64,000 nucleotides of DNA from Octopus sinensis. Taxonomy: Eukaryota. The notes below the pieces were generated by a model that ran no database searches, was not told where the DNA came from, and saw only the letters and a program-made list of their open reading frames with translations. A program made the position numbers and the translations under genes. Below are positions 2,832-57,133 of the stretch, piece by piece (the first letter of the stretch is position 1; every line of letters begins with the position of its first letter). The stretch is taken from assembly GCF_006345805.1 (NCBI RefSeq), contig NC_043006.1:45570001-45634000 (forward strand), given 5' to 3'.

Positions 2832-2879
2832 AGCAGACCAGCCTGGTTTCAGGCTATTTCTGCCTCTCTTCAGTACTGG
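2832..2879 (-). ncRNA. Type I hammerhead ribozyme, retrozyme unit 1
   Basis: RNA: ccagua CUGAAGA g aggc-agaaaua-gccu GAA acca-ggc-uggu C ugcu. Stems I (4 bp), II (4 bp) and III (4 bp) all pair, and the cleavage triplet is GUC. Confidence 0.8.
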
Positions 2880-3190
2880 ACACCTTGTCTGTGAGAAATG
2901 GCAGTAGCTCACTTCTGCTTGCAATTTATGTAATTTCAAGCAACATACAGTCACTGATTTTGCAACAAGCAAAAATGCTAGTTCTAAAAGCTCTCTAAGA
3001 GAGATCAACGCAGTAGTTGTACTAACAAGTAATGTTCATTGGCACTTCAAAATGGCTATCCTTTTGAACGCACTTTACTGCAAATTTTTTACCCCAAGAG
3101 GACATCTCCTCTAGCTGGTTAACGATGCACAACTGCATCTGAGATATTGCAAGCAGGGGAGCGAACCCCTACCACCTTCTAGTGATGGGA

Positions 3191-3240
3191 CCAGTGGACC
3201 AACCTGATTTCGGGCTGTTTCTGCCTCTCTTCAGTACTGG
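3191..3240 (-). ncRNA. Type I hammerhead ribozyme, retrozyme unit 2
   Basis: RNA: ccagua CUGAAGA gaggc-agaaaca-gccc GAA auca-ggu-uggu C cacugg. Stem I has 5 of 6 pairs, and the triplet is GUC. Confidence 0.75.
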
Positions 3241-3384
3241 ACACCTCGTCTGCTAGAGATTGCAGTAGCTCACTTCTGTTCGTAATATATATAATTCCAA
3301 GCAACATACACTCTCTGATTTTGCATGCTAACAAGCCACATTCGCTTGTGAGTGTGGATGCAAGTTATGATTTCCATTTAAATT

Positions 3385-3551
3385 CAGGAGTGGCTGTGTG
3401 GTAAGTAGCTTGCTTACCAACCACATGGTTCTGGGTTCAGTCCCACTGCATGGCACCTTGGGCAAGTGTCTTCTACTATAGCCTCTGGCCTTCCAAAGCC
3501 TTGTGAGTGGATTTGGTAGACGGAAACTGAAAGAAGCCCCTTCGTATATAC

Positions 3552-3588
<37 letters not shown>

Positions 3589-3805
3589 TGTGTGTGTGTG
3601 TTTGTCCCCCCAACATCGCTTGACAACCGATGCTGGTGTGTTTACGTCCCTGTAACTTAGCAGTTCGGTAAAAGTGACCGATAGAATAAGTACTAGGCTT
3701 ACAAAGAATAAGTCCTGGGGTCGATTTCCTCAACTAAAAGGCAGTGCTCCAGCATGGCCACAGTCAAATGACTGAAACAAGTAAAAGAGATAAAAGAGAA
3801 AGAGA
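3385..3805 (+). mobile_element. SINE family A, near full length
   Basis: Complete head, internal (TA)n(TG)n, and tail ending in aagtaaaagagataaaagag. Confidence 0.85.
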
Positions 3806-3971
3806 TAATAATAAAAGGCTTTTGTTGGGAACAAGTAAGGTTGTCTGCAGGCACAGGCGTGGCTGTTTGGTAAGAAGCTTGTATCCTAACCACATGTTCT
3901 GGGTTCAGTCCCACTGCATGGCACGGTGGGCAAGTGTCTTTTACTATAGCCCTGGGTCGACCAAAGTCCTT

Positions 3972-4195
3972 TTATTCTTTTACTTGTTTCATTCATTTCA
4001 CTGCAGCCATGCTGGAGCACCACCTTGAAGGATTTTAGTCGAACAAATCGATCCCAGGGCTTATTTTTTAAGCCTAGTACTTATTCTATTAGTCTGTTTT
4101 GCTGAACTGCTAAGTTACAGGGATGTAGACACATCAACTTTGGTTGTCAAGCAGTGATAAGGGGGTGATGGAATAAACAGAGACACGAAGACACA
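3972..4195 (-). mobile_element. SINE family A 3' half, inverted relative to the 3385-3805 copy
   Basis: Reverse complement of the family A tail (ttttacttgtttc...gccatgctggagcac...aagcctagtacttattctat). Confidence 0.75.
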
Positions 4196-4566
4196 AATAT
4201 ATTAGATATATACATACATACAGCTGATTTTTCTCAATAGAGTAAATTGAAACATGAGTTTAGTGTCTCCCTCAAAAATCCCCCAAAATATAACTATAGC
4301 AGATTTGAACTCACAATATATGAGTTTGAATCTTATGTTTTTATTCATTTTTCTACTACTATAATTTGTAAACCATTCTGCTGATGTTAGTAAAAGAAGA
4401 ATCTGCTGAAGCACATAGGGAACTGGTGTGAAATGGTGCTTTATTTTCAGTGCTAGGGTAAAGAAAGTAAGATATGTGTATGCTGTCTATGGGTTACTGT
4501 ATCATTTTATTTGGTTCTGAACTTATGGCACCTATGCCAGTTGTTCATCAACCATCTTAATCAGCA

Positions 4567-4871
4567 ACACACACACACACACACACACACACGTGCACAC
4601 ACACACATACACGCACACACACACGTGCACACACACACATACACGCACACACACACACACACTGCTACGTTCATATACATACATACACATTCACATGCAT
4701 AGACACACACATACAGAGGCTGCTACATTCAGATACATCCGTGCACACTCACACATGTACACATACACACGTGTGTACAAATACACTTAAGACACACACA
4801 CACACACACTCTCCTTCTGTCTGTCTGGTCTCTCTCTCTCTCTGTCTCTCTCTCTCTCTCTACACACACAC

Positions 4872-4909
<38 letters not shown>

Positions 4910-4983
4910 TACACATTTACAGCTACTCACACCTATTCCCTTTGAGATGGTGTTGCATTATAGTGAAATCCTTTTAAACATTT

Positions 4984-5014
<31 letters not shown>

Positions 5015-5024
5015 ACATACATGC

Positions 5025-5058
<34 letters not shown>

Positions 5059-54192: not shown

Positions 54193-54228
<36 letters not shown>

Positions 54229-54516
54229 ATGTATGTATGTGTGTATACATATATGTATATAGGTGGGGAGAGGCCGGAAAGGTCTTGGCTTTGGGTAAAA
54301 GAAAATACAGGAGGGTCAGTTAATTATGATTTTATTCAACATATTCCCCTCTCAAATTCACATATATCTTGCAGTGGTCCTTCATATTTTCTAAGCTCTA
54401 TGAAAAAACCCTGAAGGTTGGGCCTCCAGCCTGGCCTTTCATGATACCCCCTTGCATATGTATGTATGTATGTATGAATGTATATATATGTGTGTGTATG
54501 AATGTATATATATATA

Positions 54517-55053
54517 TCTTATATAAAAGCCGTTCTGTCTGTCTGTCTATGTGTGTGTCTTCTTGGATCTCGGGCATCCTGCATCTGATTATGCTCAAAT
54601 TTGATATGTAGATACCGATGGTATCAGGGTGTGTATAAGTCTTGAAAAAATTACAAAAATCGATTCCAGGTGAGAATGCGATAAAGCCGTTTTTGTCCTG
54701 CTTTTCTTCTGTCAACCTGTACATAACTGCACCTTCCATTTTCTGTTGTTTTTGTACTGCTTAAAGACACGTTTCTTTCCTGCCAAGCTTACTGTTTAAA
54801 CCATGTTTGTGTTCTCCCAGTCAACAGCCTTATCATTACTGGTACTTTAAACTCTTCGGTTGCATATTTGTGTGAATAAAATAAGCAAAAAGTCTATTTT
54901 TATTTCTTCTTTTGCTGGTGTCTCAAATTTAGGTTAAATCAGTGTTTCTCAAAGGGGAGGTCTATGGGACAGTCGGACAAGCTGTTTTGAGAAAATTTGG
55001 TTTAAATTTTTGACAACTCACAACCATCCATTGGACGGGAGGCATTTTGCTCA
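54517..55053 (+). mobile_element. Non-autonomous Helitron (diverged 3' end)
   Basis: 5' TCTTATATAAAA followed by (GTCT)n. The 3' hairpin ccatcc-att-ggacgg lies ~11 nt before a degenerate CT.. terminus, and the element sits in (TA)n. Confidence 0.6.
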
Positions 55054-55067
55054 TATATATATATAGA

Positions 55068-55110
<43 letters not shown>

Positions 55111-55291
55111 GTAAATGTTGTATGATGAAAATAAGTGCTCAACACCACATTGGTGGATATAATTTCTTCTTTTTTTATGAATTAAGGCTATCATTGGTTT
55201 CCTGTTAAGAAAAGTAGGGAAATATCCTAGTGTCAAGTCAATCACATGGAGAAAGGTGTTTGCCTCCATTTTGGATGTGTGTATACATATA

Positions 55292-55322
<31 letters not shown>

Positions 55323-56302
55323 CACACACACACACACACATATGCATACATATGGTTTTGTAGTAAGGTGCTTGTTTTTCAACCATGTGGTTGTGGGTGC
55401 AGTCCTGCTGCATGGTACCTCAAGCACCTGGCCACAGAAAATCTTGTCACACCATATTCAAGCATAGAAAAGTGAATGTTAAAATAATAATGATGATGCA
55501 GAGGATAATAATAACATATACATACATGCATATAACTCAGAAATAATTTCTTATGATTTCATCTATGTTTTGAATATATAGAAGGAAAAAAAAATCAAGC
55601 AAGTGATATATTCTGTAAGCTACAATGTCTACATTGTGATTTGTTCTGCTTAATTGAAACTCTATATCCTTCTGCTATGGCTATAGATACTTCTGGGTTA
55701 TTTTACATGGGAAGTTTTACTCACCAGGAAAATCCTTCCCCCACAATAGAGCTTGTTGTGTATTTGTTTCTTTTAAATCTTTTTATTTTTCTTAGAAAAA
55801 TTTCAGCAGCAAAATACTCTATGTGTGTGTGTGTGTGTGTGCGTGTTGGTTTCAAATTGTAGCATATGGCCAACCATTTTGATGGGTGGATAAGACGATT
55901 ACATTGATCCCAGTGCCCAACAGGTACTTACTGTATCGACCCCGAAAGGATGAAAGGCAAAGTTGACCTTGGCAGAATTTGAACTCAGAATGTAAAGACA
56001 GATGAAATATTGTCAAGCATTTTGCCCAGCGTGCTAATGATTCTGCTAGCTCACCTCATATATTTATATGTGCCCCAGCATGGCCACAGCTCATTAGCTG
56101 AAACTGGAAAAATCAAATCATATATGTGTGTGTATGTGGGAGGGGACTAATGACCTAGTGTAGAACTCAATATGTGTATGCTTCAGAACACAATGTTAGG
56201 TGAATATAGACTGGTGATAAGAAATAGAGATGACACTTGAAAAACAAAGGTTATGTAATAAATTTCATTACCCTACCCCTAATATATCCATATATATATG
56301 TA

Positions 56303-56338
<36 letters not shown>

Positions 56339-56477
56339 CAAAAATTAATATAAACAGCTAGGCACAATATAATACCATAAAAGAAAAATTTTGTCATCAC
56401 TAATTGTGACTGAGATGCTGAAGCACATGTATTGCAAGGAATAAGAGTTAAAAACTCTTAATGTTGTGAAAAGCATG

Positions 56478-56532
<55 letters not shown>

Positions 56533-56704
56533 ATATATATATAAATGAAAGAATGGAGTTGAATGACGATCTAACAAAATTCCTTTATTCTTGACATATG
56601 TTTCGAAGGAATATTTTAAAGAAACACTCATTATCGCTATGGGCTCTGTGTGGGCAGTCATCTAAAAGTTTTTGTTCATCTTGATGCTGACATAAGTTCC
56701 TTGT

Positions 56705-56787
56705 TTTTCCTGATGAGAAGGCGGCATAATGCACCCCTTATTCCTTCGAAATTAGGAATATGCAGCCTTCGAAACATATGTCGAGAA
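56705..56787 (+). ncRNA. Type I hammerhead ribozyme with extended stem II, in an inverted-arm Penelope-like element (56541-~56985)
   Basis: uuuuc CUGAUGA gaaggc-g-gcaua ... uaugc-a-gccuuc GAAAC auau GUC gagaa. It has a canonical G10.1-C11.1 pair, palindromic stem III ACAUAUGU, a GUC triplet and a 5-bp stem I. Confidence 0.88.
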
Positions 56788-57053
56788 TAAAGGAATTTTG
56801 TTAGATCGTCGTTCAACTCCATTCTTTCATTTATTTGTATTAAAAAAACACACAAATTTCCACACGAAAGCACGTGATCTCTGCCCTTGGCATGTAGCTT
56901 CAACCGTGTTTTTCTGACGTGAATTTGCTACCCAGGTATCTGTTAACCGAATTATCCATACTAAGATAATTCATTCAACTACCTACATATATATTATTAG
57001 TGAATGGAATAAATGGAGTTGAAGGAAGATTGTACAGAATACCTTTTATTACA

Positions 57054-57133
57054 TTCTACACATGTTTCGAAGGCCACAAATTTCCAAATTCTGTTTAAAT
57101 AAGGGTACCATATTGCGGCTTTCTCTTCAGGAA
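57054..57133 (-). ncRNA. Type I hammerhead ribozyme with extended stem II, in an inverted-arm Penelope-like element (56991-~57378)
   Basis: uuc CUGAAGA gaaagccgcaa ... uuguggccuuc GAAAC augu GUA gaa. Stem II has 10 of 11 pairs and stem I has 3 bp. Confidence 0.78.

What the first reader, a model, noticed from the sequence alone, without database searches (positions are those of the whole stretch)
2832..57133. About ten hammerhead motifs from several distinct repeat families in 64 kb
Seen: motifs at 2832, 3191, 15437, 22950/23211, 25571, 26354 (degenerate), 26570, 36561, 56705 and 57054. They have different stem sequences around the same catalytic core, which amounts to covariation across families. 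Most non-tandem ones lie in or beside (TA)n tracts, several have inverted arms, and several carry a downstream '(t)tcaactccatt/ctctccattt' motif (15607, 25963, 26772, 56812, 57217). Known: Penelope-like element pLTRs carry minimal hammerheads and prefer AT-rich targets. Inference: this genome hosts a large ecosystem of ribozyme-bearing non-autonomous retroelements, and intact copies could cleave a host pre-mRNA on either strand.
Basis: partly seen in the sequence, partly recalled or inferred. Interest (0 to 1): 0.72.

Follow-up and report, generated by a model that had tools for sequence, protein, structure and literature searches.

The report
Hammerhead-bearing repeats of Penelope type
This 64-kb stretch of an animal genome holds copies of at least six abundant non-coding repeat families that carry hammerhead-ribozyme motifs; they are likely copied by Penelope-like retrotransposons, a known kind of element, and self-cutting is predicted, not shown.

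Summary
Of 11 listed sites, 6 are complete or nearly complete type I hammerheads: 2873-, 3232-, 25609-, 56710+, 57130- and 15439+ (this one has a weak helix I). Four keep the motif with a change at an invariant position: 22987- has A12, 23215+ and 36565+ have G17, and 26601- has U6. The site at 26354 is a chance look-alike inside a palindromic MITE-like repeat.

Core plus helix II is found at 6 loci against 0.61 in shuffles (0 of 300 reach 6). The full descriptor is found at 3 loci against 0.003. Rfam models find none of them.

Each site belongs to a dispersed family, with about 100 to 4,225 first-look candidate places in the 2.72-Gb genome and best copies 72-100% identical to the window copy. 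Partial copies are 5'-truncated and 3'-anchored. Copies sit as head-to-head inverted or partial tandem arrays, mostly ending in (TA)n. That is the insertion shape of Penelope-like elements.

The genome holds intact RT + GIY-YIG Penelope ORFs that also end in (TA)n, with a U3:A8 hammerhead variant near the 3' end. I found no sequence link from the window's families to a specific autonomous partner.

This is a new member of a known kind. Earlier notes of this scan describe the same kind on other DNA of this genome.

The parts
2665..3325 (-). Family F1: about 1.9 tandem units of a ~360-bp non-coding repeat. The two units are 83% alike.
   Evidence: The genome holds at least 1,447 first-look candidate places; scored matches are 70-90% identical to the window copy.
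2823..2889 (-). F1a hammerhead. Core CUGAAGA. Helix II is G.U, one bulged nt, then GGC:GCC. GAAA. Helix III ACCA/UGGU. GUC site, predicted cut after 2836. Helix I is cut down to 4 bp by two substitutions.
   Evidence: passes the full descriptor.
3184..3250 (-). F1b hammerhead. The core is intact and helix II matches the family majority (G-C, bulge, GGC:GCC). Helix III has U.G at 15.2-16.2. C17 is at 3197. Helix I has an A.C mismatch at its base, then 5 bp.
15431..15640 (+). Family F2 unit. Its 3' end abuts (TA)n at 15636.
   Evidence: at least 100 candidate places, main matches 72-89% identical..
15434..15531 (+). F2 hammerhead. CUGAUGA, a long helix II (GAUUC...GAAUC with an inner stem), GAAAC, helix III AC-CAUU-GU and A17 at 15525. 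Helix I is weak.
   Evidence: In 5 of 9 other copies the helix III stretch reads ACAAUUGU, a perfect palindrome.
22860..23309 (.). Family F3: a head-to-head inverted pair, arm 22860-23041 (-) and arm 23164-23309 (+). There is no (TA)n nearby.
   Evidence: at least 1,879 candidate places; full-length matches 89-95% identical.
22947..22998 (-). F3a hammerhead-like motif. The core at 22981-22987 is intact, but G12 is A.
   Evidence: read by eye.
23210..23255 (+). F3b hammerhead-like motif. CUGAAGA, one unpaired A, helix II (6 bp in most copies, 4 bp here) and GAAAC. Position 17 is G and no helix I is found.
25472..25637 (-). Family F4: a solo full-length 166-nt unit with (TA)n-type microsatellite on both sides.
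   Evidence: at least 949 candidate places, 97-100% identical. Elsewhere the family often sits as head-to-head inverted pairs.
25571..25613 (-). F4 hammerhead, compact and complete. Helix I CCAC/GUGG, CUGAAGA, helix II UUGUC/GACAA, GAAAC, helix III AC-GAUU-GU and A17 at 25575.
   Evidence: 21 of 22 other copies are identical across the motif.
25785..25985 (.). An inverted pair of element tails only. No hammerhead is left, and each tail ends in CCTCCATTTTCTT.
26252..26441 (.). A palindromic, MITE-like 190-bp repeat. The 'degenerate hammerhead' at 26354 is a chance resemblance.
   Evidence: at least 823 candidate places. The other 11 aligned copies lack the core.
26449..26690 (-). Family F5a: a ~240-nt unit whose 3' end abuts (TA)n at 26450-26470.
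   Evidence: at least 2,386 candidate places, 93-98% identical.
26568..26608 (-). F5a minimal hammerhead-like motif. Core CUGUAGA (U at position 6), one unpaired A, GAGC/GCUC, GAAAC, GU and A17. Helix I is UCCUUUU/AAAGA.
   Evidence: All 12 main-family copies carry the same U6.
36462..36702 (+). Family F5b: a ~241-nt unit, 65% alike to F5a over 120 nt, followed by a TA/TG microsatellite.
   Evidence: at least 4,225 candidate places, 90-94% identical.
36561..36595 (+). F5b minimal hammerhead. CUGAUGA, one unpaired A, G10.1-C11.1 (GAGC/GCUC), GAAAC and GU with no loop 3, so ACGU is palindromic. Position 17 is G. Helix I is AUUU/AAAU.
   Evidence: G17 is present in 7 of 9 other copies.
56535..56840 (.). 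Family F6a insertion: an inverted 5'-truncated arm at 56535-56609 (-) joined head-to-head to a full unit at 56610-56840 (+). The arm's outer end abuts (TA)n.
   Evidence: at least 1,594 candidate places, 97-100% identical. All 7 partial matches run to the 3' end of the query.
56697..56795 (+). F6a hammerhead, complete. Helix I has 13 positions with an internal loop. CUGAUGA, helix II GAAGGC/GCCUUC with a long insert, GAAAC, helix III AC-AUAU-GU (palindromic) and C17 at 56782.
   Evidence: In one search the minimum-energy fold reproduces helices I and II (z = -3.56; 0 of 200 shuffles fold as well).
56842..56997 (+). A separate, very abundant repeat unit adjoining F6a, ending in TTCAACTACCTACATATATAT.
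56991..57249 (.). Family F6b, 72% alike to F6a: a main copy on the minus strand at 56991-57197 plus an inverted 5'-truncated arm at 57198-57249 (+).
57042..57144 (-). F6b hammerhead. CUGAAGA, a long helix II with one A.C mismatch, GAAAC, helix III AC-AUGU-GU (self-complementary with a G.U pair) and A17 at 57057. Helix I is 3 bp, then interrupted.

Best explanation
The window holds copies of at least six dispersed, ORF-less repeat families that carry type I hammerhead motifs near their 3' ends; they are likely non-autonomous retroelements copied in trans by the reverse transcriptase and GIY-YIG endonuclease of Penelope-like elements (PLEs).

SHOWN
- The motifs and their excess over chance.
- Family sizes and ages.
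- Partial copies are always anchored at the 3' end.
- Copies sit as head-to-head inverted or partial tandem arrays.
- Five families (F2, F4, F5a, F5b, F6) have 3' ends in TA-type microsatellite.
- The same genome holds intact RT + GIY-YIG ORFs. Their elements also end in (TA)n and carry a hammerhead-like motif (U3:A8 variant), with GAAAC about 70-90 nt before that end.

INFERRED
- A PLE endonuclease would nick (TA)n, and the PLE RT would prime on the element's 3' end (target-primed reverse transcription). Template switching would give the inverted and tandem partial copies.
- The canonical motifs (F1 majority form, F4, F6a) are predicted to self-cleave. F2, F4, F5 and F6 have a two-base-pair or loop-less helix III that is self-complementary, so they are predicted to cut best as dimers, as described for metazoan type I and PLE hammerheads (PMC4209133, passages read).
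- F5a (U6), F5b (G17) and F3 (G17) are predicted not to cut, yet they spread to thousands of copies. Cleavage is therefore probably not required for copying.
For: MOTIF EXCESS
- Core plus helix II: 6 loci against 0.61 in shuffles. Only 10 of 5,039 decoys reach 6.
- Full descriptor: 3 loci against 0.0033.
- Canonical core 6 hits against 0.7 per one-off core.

FAMILIES (first-look candidate places; these are lower bounds, not copy numbers)
- F1 1,447; F2 100; F3 1,879; F4 949; F5a 2,386; F5b 4,225; F6a 1,594.

MOTIFS ARE KEPT IN OTHER COPIES
- F4: 21 of 22 copies identical across the motif. F6a: 14 of 16 identical. F5b: core kept in 8 of 9. F3: 9 of 11. F2: 6 of 9.
- The F1 majority form folds as helix I 6 bp or more, helix II 4 bp with a bulge, and helix III 4 bp: 87% of cells are paired against 26-39% when the partners are slid.

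RETRO-TYPE INSERTION
- All 7 partial F6a matches and all 3 partial F4 matches run to the 3' end.
- Inverted (-)(+) head-to-head pairs occur in 6 of 10 independent F4 loci and 5 of 11 F6a loci.
- F1 shows a unit plus a partial next unit, and mixed tandem/inverted arrays, at many loci.
- Arm lengths vary, which does not fit fixed transposon terminal repeats.

(TA)n

AUTONOMOUS ELEMENTS
- PF01541 gives at least 5,029 candidate places, with open frames up to 883 aa.
- 3 of 3 ORFs tested show RVT_1 followed by a C-terminal GIY-YIG domain.
- A DKG motif and a C-x5-C-x2-C linker are present.
- 15 of 16 sampled ORFs are one family. Each has UUGAUAA...GAAAC AUGU near the 3' end.
- In 4 of 4 copies printed, the element ends directly in (TA)n.

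SHARED LAYOUT
- The predicted cut site lies about 58-125 nt from the 3' end in F2, F4, F5a, F5b and F6a. In the autonomous elements GAAAC lies about 70-90 nt before the terminal (TA)n.

HELIX III
- It is self-complementary, counting G.U pairs, in F4 (ACGAUUGU), F6a (ACAUAUGU), F6b (ACAUGUGU), most F2 copies (ACAAUUGU), F5 (ACGU) and the autonomous PLE (ACAUGU).

LITERATURE
- PLE insertions with pseudo-LTRs, inverted 5'-truncated copies and a (TA)n bias: PMC8557442.
- Unpaired nt between positions 9 and 10.1, G10.1-C11.1 and a palindromic helix III in PLE hammerheads: PMC4209133.
- Retrozymes as PLE derivatives: bioRxiv 10.64898/2026.07.22.740005 (abstract and section 14 read).
Against: - No Rfam hammerhead model matches any site, even at E<=10.
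- blastn found no similarity between the window's families and the 3' regions directly behind the 28 sampled GIY-YIG loci. The hits that did appear were separate neighbouring insertions.
- The last 60 nt of the families are not significantly like the tails of the sampled autonomous family. The best pair was reached by 2 of 300 shuffles and most pairs by far more. The autonomous partner is therefore unidentified.
- Only 2-3 PLE families were sampled, out of thousands of GIY-YIG candidate places.
- There is no covariation within F1 beyond shuffles (87.0% paired against 87.2%), as expected for copies decaying neutrally. Support for the fold therefore rests on the majority sequence and on independent families.
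- Minimum-energy folds of F4, F1 and F3 are not the hammerhead fold, and their energies are ordinary.
- F3 is not near (TA)n, has no helix I and has G17. It could be a relic or partly a chance match.
- Cleavage, expression and circular RNA were not observed.
Confidence: 0.7

Rival explanations
1. These are retrozymes in the strict sense. The hammerheads would cut a multimeric transcript into monomers, a host ligase would circularise them, and an RT would copy the circle by repeated read-around. On this reading cleavage is essential to spread.
For: - F1 is a tandem ~360-bp repeat with one hammerhead per unit, and many loci show one unit plus a partial next unit. This fits read-around of a circle or of a tandem RNA.
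- Animal non-LTR retrozymes of 170-400 nt are described in coral, mussel and axolotl (PMC7229834, passages read).
Against: - F4 and F6 sit as solo or head-to-head inverted copies, not tandems.
- Unit boundaries do not coincide with the predicted cut site. The F4 unit starts 57 nt before it. The recurrent 3' end of F1 lies near query position 94-103, while the cut site is near 225.
- F5a, F5b and F3 spread with U6 or G17.
- No circular junction was seen, but only contigs of uncertain kind could be laid.
Confidence: 0.15
2. The families are mobilised by LINEs, as ordinary SINEs are. On this reading the hammerhead is a passenger.
For: - Octopus-type genomes are rich in LINEs and in unclassified SINEs (PMC13282606, passages read).
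- No tail match to a PLE was found.
Against: - No poly(A) or LINE-like tail is seen at the 3' ends.
- Head-to-head inverted partial copies and a (TA)n target match the PLE description (PMC8557442) and the autonomous PLE copies of this genome.
- I did not test tail similarity to LINEs.
Confidence: 0.08
3. The motifs are chance matches or dead relics with no present activity, and the inverted arms are the terminal repeats of DNA transposons.
For: - This is true for 26354, a palindromic MITE-like repeat without the core in its relatives.
- Rfam finds nothing.
- Four sites carry changes at invariant positions.
Against: - The excess over shuffles and decoys is strong.
- Six unrelated families carry the same core with different helices.
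- Arm lengths vary and are anchored at the 3' end.
- F4 and F6a copies are 97-100% identical and their motifs are intact.
Confidence: 0.05

Closest known systems
Minimal and canonical type I hammerheads of metazoan Penelope-like elements (Cervera and de la Pena 2014, PMC4209133; abstract and passages read)
   Same: - Type I topology with an open helix I.
- One unpaired nt between A9 and 10.1 (F3, F5a, F5b), or a bulged nt inside helix II (F1).
- G10.1-C11.1 (F2, F5, F6).
- Helix II longer than usual (F2, F3, F6), and helix I of 4-5 bp.
- Helix III missing or 2 bp, with a palindromic stretch.
- Many sequence-diverse families in one genome.
   Different: - These copies sit in short ORF-less elements, not in the flanking repeats of a coding PLE.
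- F1 has a stable 4-bp helix III.
- F5a, F5b and F3 carry U6 or G17 in most copies.
- No species of this group is named in the passages I read.
Animal non-LTR retrozymes (Cervera and de la Pena 2020, PMC7229834; Li, Clavereau and Pollet 2026 preprint, 10.64898/2026.07.22.740005)
   Same: - ORF-less units of 166-360 nt.
- Low G+C.
- A type I hammerhead with a 2-bp helix III capped by a tetraloop.
- They coexist with autonomous PLEs.
- F1 is tandem.
   Different: - Most families here are solo or head-to-head inverted, not tandem arrays.
- Unit ends do not coincide with the predicted cut sites.
- Circular RNA was not shown.
C-terminal EN+ PLEs with microsatellite targets: Neptune-type CX2-5CxxC linker, Hydra clade with (TA)n insertions (Craig et al. 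2021, PMC8557442)
   Same: - The autonomous elements of this genome have an RT followed by a C-terminal GIY-YIG domain.
- They have a DKG motif and a C-x5-C-x2-C linker.
- They end in (TA)n.
- Inverted 5'-truncated copies and partial tandems are the described insertion shape.
   Different: - Their hammerhead has U3:A8 instead of C3:G8.
- The clade was not placed by a tree.
- The window's own elements encode nothing.

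Membership tests
Hammerhead ribozyme, type I | Conserved core CUGANGA ... GAAA | tested here: met
   Met at 2873-, 3232-, 15439+, 23215+, 25609-, 36565+, 56710+ and 57130-. Not met at 26601- (U6), 22987- (A12) or 26354.
Hammerhead ribozyme, type I | Helix II between the two core strands | tested here: met
   Four to eight pairs at every site that has the core. 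F1 needs one bulged nt.
Hammerhead ribozyme, type I | Helix III with A15.1-U16.1, and a non-G nucleotide at the cleavage site (position 17) | tested here: inconclusive
   Met in F1 (GUC), F2 (GUA), F4 (GUA), F6a (GUC), F6b (GUA) and F5a (GUA). Not met in F5b and F3, which have G17 in most copies.
Hammerhead ribozyme, type I | Helix I formed by the sequences before the core and after the cleavage site | tested here: inconclusive
   Four pairs or more in F1a, F4, F6a and F5a/b. Weak in F2 and F6b. Absent in F3.
Hammerhead ribozyme, type I | Match to the curated covariance models (Rfam hammerhead families) | tested here: not met
   0 at gathering scores. No hammerhead family among the matches listed at E<=10 (150 of 225 listed; all 110 listed).
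Hammerhead ribozyme, type I | Site-specific self-cleavage | not testable with these tools
Animal non-LTR retrozyme | Short tandem repeats (about 150-450 bp), each unit with a type I hammerhead and no ORF | tested here: inconclusive
   F1 meets it. F2, F3, F4, F5 and F6 are solo or inverted, not tandem.
Animal non-LTR retrozyme | Expression as linear and circular RNA monomers | not testable with these tools
   Only contigs of runs of uncertain kind were available.
PLE-dependent non-autonomous element | PLE-type insertion shape: partial tandems, an inverted 5'-truncated copy, and a microsatellite target | tested here: met
   compared with PMC8557442.
PLE-dependent non-autonomous element | 3'-end sequence shared with an autonomous PLE of the same genome | tested here: inconclusive
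   None was found against 28 GIY-YIG loci of 2-3 families. Most of the 5,029 or more GIY-YIG candidate places were not sampled.

The most novel reading that the evidence does not exclude
In these elements the hammerhead serves as a folded 3' module that the Penelope machinery needs for copying, not as a ribozyme.

Two sister families lost different invariant positions: F5a has U6 and F5b has G17. A third family, F3, also has G17. All three still reached thousands of copies. Every family, like the autonomous element, keeps the motif at a similar distance from a 3' end in or next to (TA)n (F3 excepted).
Probability: 0.15. Interest if true: 0.7.

Novelty: new member of a known kind. Interest (0 to 1): 0.35.

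Why it matters
What hammerheads do in Penelope-like elements is still called unclear (PMC8557442). This genome offers, side by side:
- very young families with intact motifs (F4 and F6a, 97-100% identical copies);
- abundant families whose shared sequence has a change at an invariant position (F5a, F5b, F3);
- intact autonomous elements with a U3:A8 core.

That is a natural series for testing whether cleavage is needed for retrotransposition.

On the practical side, the two octopus repeat papers I searched do not mention hammerheads or ribozymes at all (0 occurrences in PMC13282606 and PMC8967140). PMC13282606 lists 893 recently active 'unclassified SINE' families, so such elements are probably filed there.

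Tried and rejected
- **Rfam.** Run at gathering scores and at E<=10. It returned only microsatellite 'miRNA' noise.
- **Covariation within F1.** 47 copies gave no signal beyond shuffles.
- **Sequencing runs.** No RNA holder was listed. Contigs of four coded runs were laid on 56535-57260. The family is present in them, but the kind of run is a guess and contigs show no RNA ends. No support either way for expression, cleavage or circles.
- **Link to autonomous PLEs.** blastn of all family regions against 12 + 16 + 20 GIY-YIG loci found only neighbouring independent insertions, such as an F5a-like copy tail-to-tail behind a PLE in (TA)n.
- **Tail comparison.** Local alignment of the last 60 nt against shuffles was not significant for PLE against family pairs.
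- **CTCCATT tail motif.** Not enriched as a word.
- **Minimum-energy folding.** It reproduced the hammerhead helices for F6a and F5b, helix II and part of helix I for F2, and not for F4, F1 or F3.
- **Host gene context.** Pfam on 28 ORFs found only an integrase fragment.
- **Literature.** Searches for hammerheads or retrozymes in cephalopods found no paper describing them. This covers only the open-access library searched.

Full report
**Where the window lies.** The window is G000:C10:45570001-45634000 of a 2.72-Gb animal genome with 13,516 contigs. It is AT-rich (27-42% G+C) and full of TA/TG microsatellites. I did not test that.

**The observation.** I read all 11 listed places on both strands and then searched with descriptors of my own.

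The heptamer CTGATGA alone is not enriched: 9 against 11.4 expected. A descriptor of CUGANGA, 0-1 unpaired nt, a helix II of at least 4 pairs and GAAA finds 6 loci: 2873-, 15439+, 23215+, 25609-, 36565+ and 56710+. The 300 dinucleotide shuffles average 0.61 +/- 0.79, and none reaches 6. On the real sequence, only 10 of 5,039 decoys with permuted core letters reach 6, and some of those overlap the true motif or sit in other repeats.

I then added a helix III closed by A15.1-U16.1, a non-G at position 17 and a helix I of at least 4 pairs. That leaves 3 loci (2873-, 25609-, 56710+) against 0.0033 per shuffle; 1 of 300 shuffles had any. With one mismatch allowed in helix II, the canonical core gives 6 hits, all followed by GAAAC, and 57130- is now included. 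Eighteen cores one letter away give 13 hits together, only 2 of them with GAAAC.

Rfam gives nothing: 0 matches at gathering scores. No hammerhead family appears among the 150 of 225 matches listed at E<=10. None appears among all 110 matches at E<=10 in 9.7 kb that hold seven of the sites. I take this as a limit of those models for motifs with a 2-bp or missing helix III and long helix II inserts, but it stands as evidence against.

**Site by site.**

*Complete or nearly complete:*
- F1a (2823-2889, -) and F1b (3184-3250, -) are two units of a tandem ~360-bp repeat.
- F4 (25571-25613, -) is compact and textbook-like.
- F6a (56697-56795, +) has a 13-position helix I with an internal loop and a long helix II.
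- F6b (57042-57144, -) is an inverted, 72%-alike relative with one mismatch in helix II.
- F2 (15434-15531, +) has a good core and good helices II and III, but only 2-3 pairs in helix I.

*Changed at positions that are invariant in the textbook motif (the rule is recalled):*
- F3a (22987-) has A for G12.
- F3b (23215+) has G at position 17 and no helix I.
- F5a (26601-) reads CUGUAGA.
- F5b (36565+) has G at position 17.

*Not a hammerhead:*
- The 'degenerate' site at 26354 lies in a 190-bp palindromic, MITE-like repeat. Its 11 aligned relatives have no such core.

**Each site belongs to a dispersed family.** First-look candidate places in the genome are lower bounds, because only 40 are scored per search.

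| Family | Candidate places | Identity of scored matches to the window copy |
|---|---|---|
| F1 | 1,447 | 70-90% |
| F2 | 100 | main matches 72-89% |
| F3 | 1,879 | full-length 89-95% |
| F4 | 949 | 97-100% |
| F5a | 2,386 | 93-98% |
| F5b | 4,225 | 90-94% |
| F6a | 1,594 | 97-100% |

The motif is a family character, not an accident of the window copy:
- F4: 21 of 22 copies are identical across the motif.
- F6a: 14 of 16 are identical; one has a substitution in the loop of helix II and one is truncated inside the motif.
- F5b: the core is kept in 8 of 9 copies, and G17 is present in 7 of 9.
- F5a: all 12 main-family copies have the same U6.
- F3: the core is kept in 9 of 11.
- F2: the core is kept in 6 of 9.

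For F1 I aligned 47 copies. The majority sequence folds as:
- a helix I of 6 pairs plus an outer extension;
- a helix II of G-C, one bulged nt, then GGC:GCC;
- a 4-bp helix III;
- a GUC site.

87% of cells pair, against 26-39% when the partners are slid. Shuffling the partners among copies gives the same 87.2%, and there are no more compensatory changes than in shuffles. The copies decay neutrally after insertion, so the within-family data neither add to nor detract from the fold.

**How the copies are inserted.**
- Partial copies are always anchored at the 3' end. F6a partial matches cover 24-151, 27-151, 36-151, 39-151, 47-151, 74-151 and 87-151 of a 151-nt query (7 of 7). F4 partials cover 75-166, 105-169 and 124-166 (3 of 3).
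- Copies often sit as (-)(+) head-to-head pairs with the 3' ends outward: 6 of 10 independent F4 loci and 5 of 11 F6a loci. In the window these pairs are 56535-56609/56610-56840, 56991-57197/57198-57249 and 22860-23041/23164-23309.
- Inner junctions vary between loci. This does not fit the fixed terminal repeats of a DNA transposon.
- F1 shows a unit plus a partial next unit, and mixed tandem/inverted arrays, at many loci.
- The 3' ends of F2, F4, F5a, F5b and F6 run into TA-type microsatellite. 7 of 11 sites lie within 250 nt of a (TA)>=6 tract, against a share of about 0.2 for random positions. F1 and F3 do not.
- No ORF is present in any of these units.

This is the insertion shape described for Penelope-like elements: pseudo-LTRs from partial tandems, an adjacent inverted 5'-truncated copy, and a microsatellite target, with (TA)n named for the Naiad and Hydra clades (PMC8557442; passages and section 11 read).

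**Autonomous elements in the same genome.**
- Pfam GIY-YIG finds at least 5,029 candidate places, with open frames up to 883 aa.
- I fetched 16 loci with long frames. 15 belong to one family (89% aa identity or more) with ORFs of 472-883 aa.
- 3 of 3 ORFs tested show RVT_1 followed by a C-terminal GIY-YIG domain. RVT_1 scores are at or just under the curated cut-off.
- One translated ORF has a DKG motif and a C-x5-C-x2-C linker before the endonuclease. The paper ties this linker type to microsatellite targeting.
- All 15 carry UUGAUAA-helix II-GAAAC-AUGU downstream of the ORF. This is a hammerhead with U3:A8 in place of the C3:G8 pair. Two subfamilies have different helix II loops.
- In 4 of 4 copies printed, the element ends about 70-90 nt after GAAAC, directly in (TA)n.
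- Among 20 further GIY-YIG loci, another PLE remnant has a canonical CUGAUGA motif with a palindromic AGCGCU helix III on its sense strand (L151).

The layout of a hammerhead followed by some 60-125 nt of tail and then (TA)n is thus shared by the autonomous elements and by F2, F4, F5a, F5b and F6a.

**What I could not show.**
- blastn of the window's families against all 48 fetched GIY-YIG loci found no similarity in the 3' regions that belong to the coding elements. The hits that did appear are separate insertions nearby.
- The last 60 nt of the families are not significantly like the autonomous tails.
- The shared CTCCATT-type word at several ends is real but not enriched.

The autonomous partner of each family is therefore unknown. 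Dependence on PLEs rests on insertion shape, target and layout.

Expression and cleavage were not observed. No RNA holder was listed for the stretch, and the contigs that could be laid show presence only. No host exon was recognised in the window, so the idea that these motifs cut a host pre-mRNA remains open.

**Mechanism: the most likely reading.** A PLE endonuclease would nick (TA)n, and the PLE RT would copy the short RNA from its 3' end. Template jumps would give the inverted and tandem partial copies. All of this is inferred.

F4, F6a and F1 in its majority form are predicted to self-cleave. In F2 (most copies), F4, F5, F6a, F6b and the autonomous element, the helix III stretch is self-complementary when G.U pairs are counted. 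That is the design said to work as dimers (PMC4209133). For a 4-nt loop this has a chance of about 0.14 per family (my estimate).

F5a and F5b are sister families, 65% alike over 120 nt, and they lost different invariant positions. Both have thousands of copies, and so has F3. This suggests that cleavage is not needed for copying, in line with the remark in PMC8557442 that the function of hammerheads in EN+ PLEs is unclear.

**Comparison and novelty.** The motifs match the published features of PLE and metazoan type I hammerheads:
- an unpaired nt after A9;
- G10.1-C11.1;
- a long helix II;
- a short helix I;
- a palindromic or missing helix III (PMC4209133).

F1 fits the definition of an animal non-LTR retrozyme (PMC7229834). 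A 2026 preprint argues that such retrozymes derive from PLE terminal repeats (10.64898/2026.07.22.740005; abstract and section 14 read).

This is a new member of a known kind. The library I could search held no description of hammerheads or retrozymes in cephalopods. Two octopus repeat papers do not mention ribozymes. Earlier notes of this scan describe the same kind of element on other DNA of this genome.

Noticed in passing
L047-L062 (own genome, e.g. L050:1032-3374 and the ~1 kb behind it): The dominant sampled autonomous Penelope-like family keeps a hammerhead with U3:A8 instead of C3:G8 in 15 of 15 copies. Two subfamilies differ in the helix II loop. Upstream of it the 3' UTR holds 4-5 repeats of a ~100-nt unit containing TTGATGACGTC.
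   Followed up: partly
window 3330-3560 (-), with 35-nt matches at 14812, 17491, 28068, 52930, 59101 and 61113: A tRNA-like SINE-type repeat (GGGACTGAACCCAGAACC...), often next to TA or CA microsatellite, recurs at least 8 times in the window.
   Followed up: no
window 12420-12761 (+): An ORF fragment matches the Integrase_H2C2 zinc-binding domain (E 5e-11). It is a remnant of an LTR retrotransposon.
   Followed up: no
window 56842-56997: A 156-nt unit directly behind the F6a copy is itself a very abundant repeat, with the highest contig depth. It often travels with F6a, but in some loci in another orientation.
   Followed up: partly
window 42267-42883: Three or four repeats of a ~190-bp unit (…GTGGAAACTGAAAAGAAGCCTGTCATGTGTG) each end in a (TA)n tract.
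   Followed up: no
L059 about 690-900 nt behind the ORF end; L035 915-1064: F5a-like copies lie tail-to-tail behind autonomous Penelope copies across a shared (TA)n tract. Both kinds of element appear to use the same target.
   Followed up: partly
window-wide (e.g. 4873-5071, 25286-25472, 48626-48715): TA/TG microsatellites give dozens of sub-threshold 'miRNA' matches in Rfam (mir-297, mir-3149, mir-1277). All are far below gathering scores. This is noise, not genes.
   Followed up: yes
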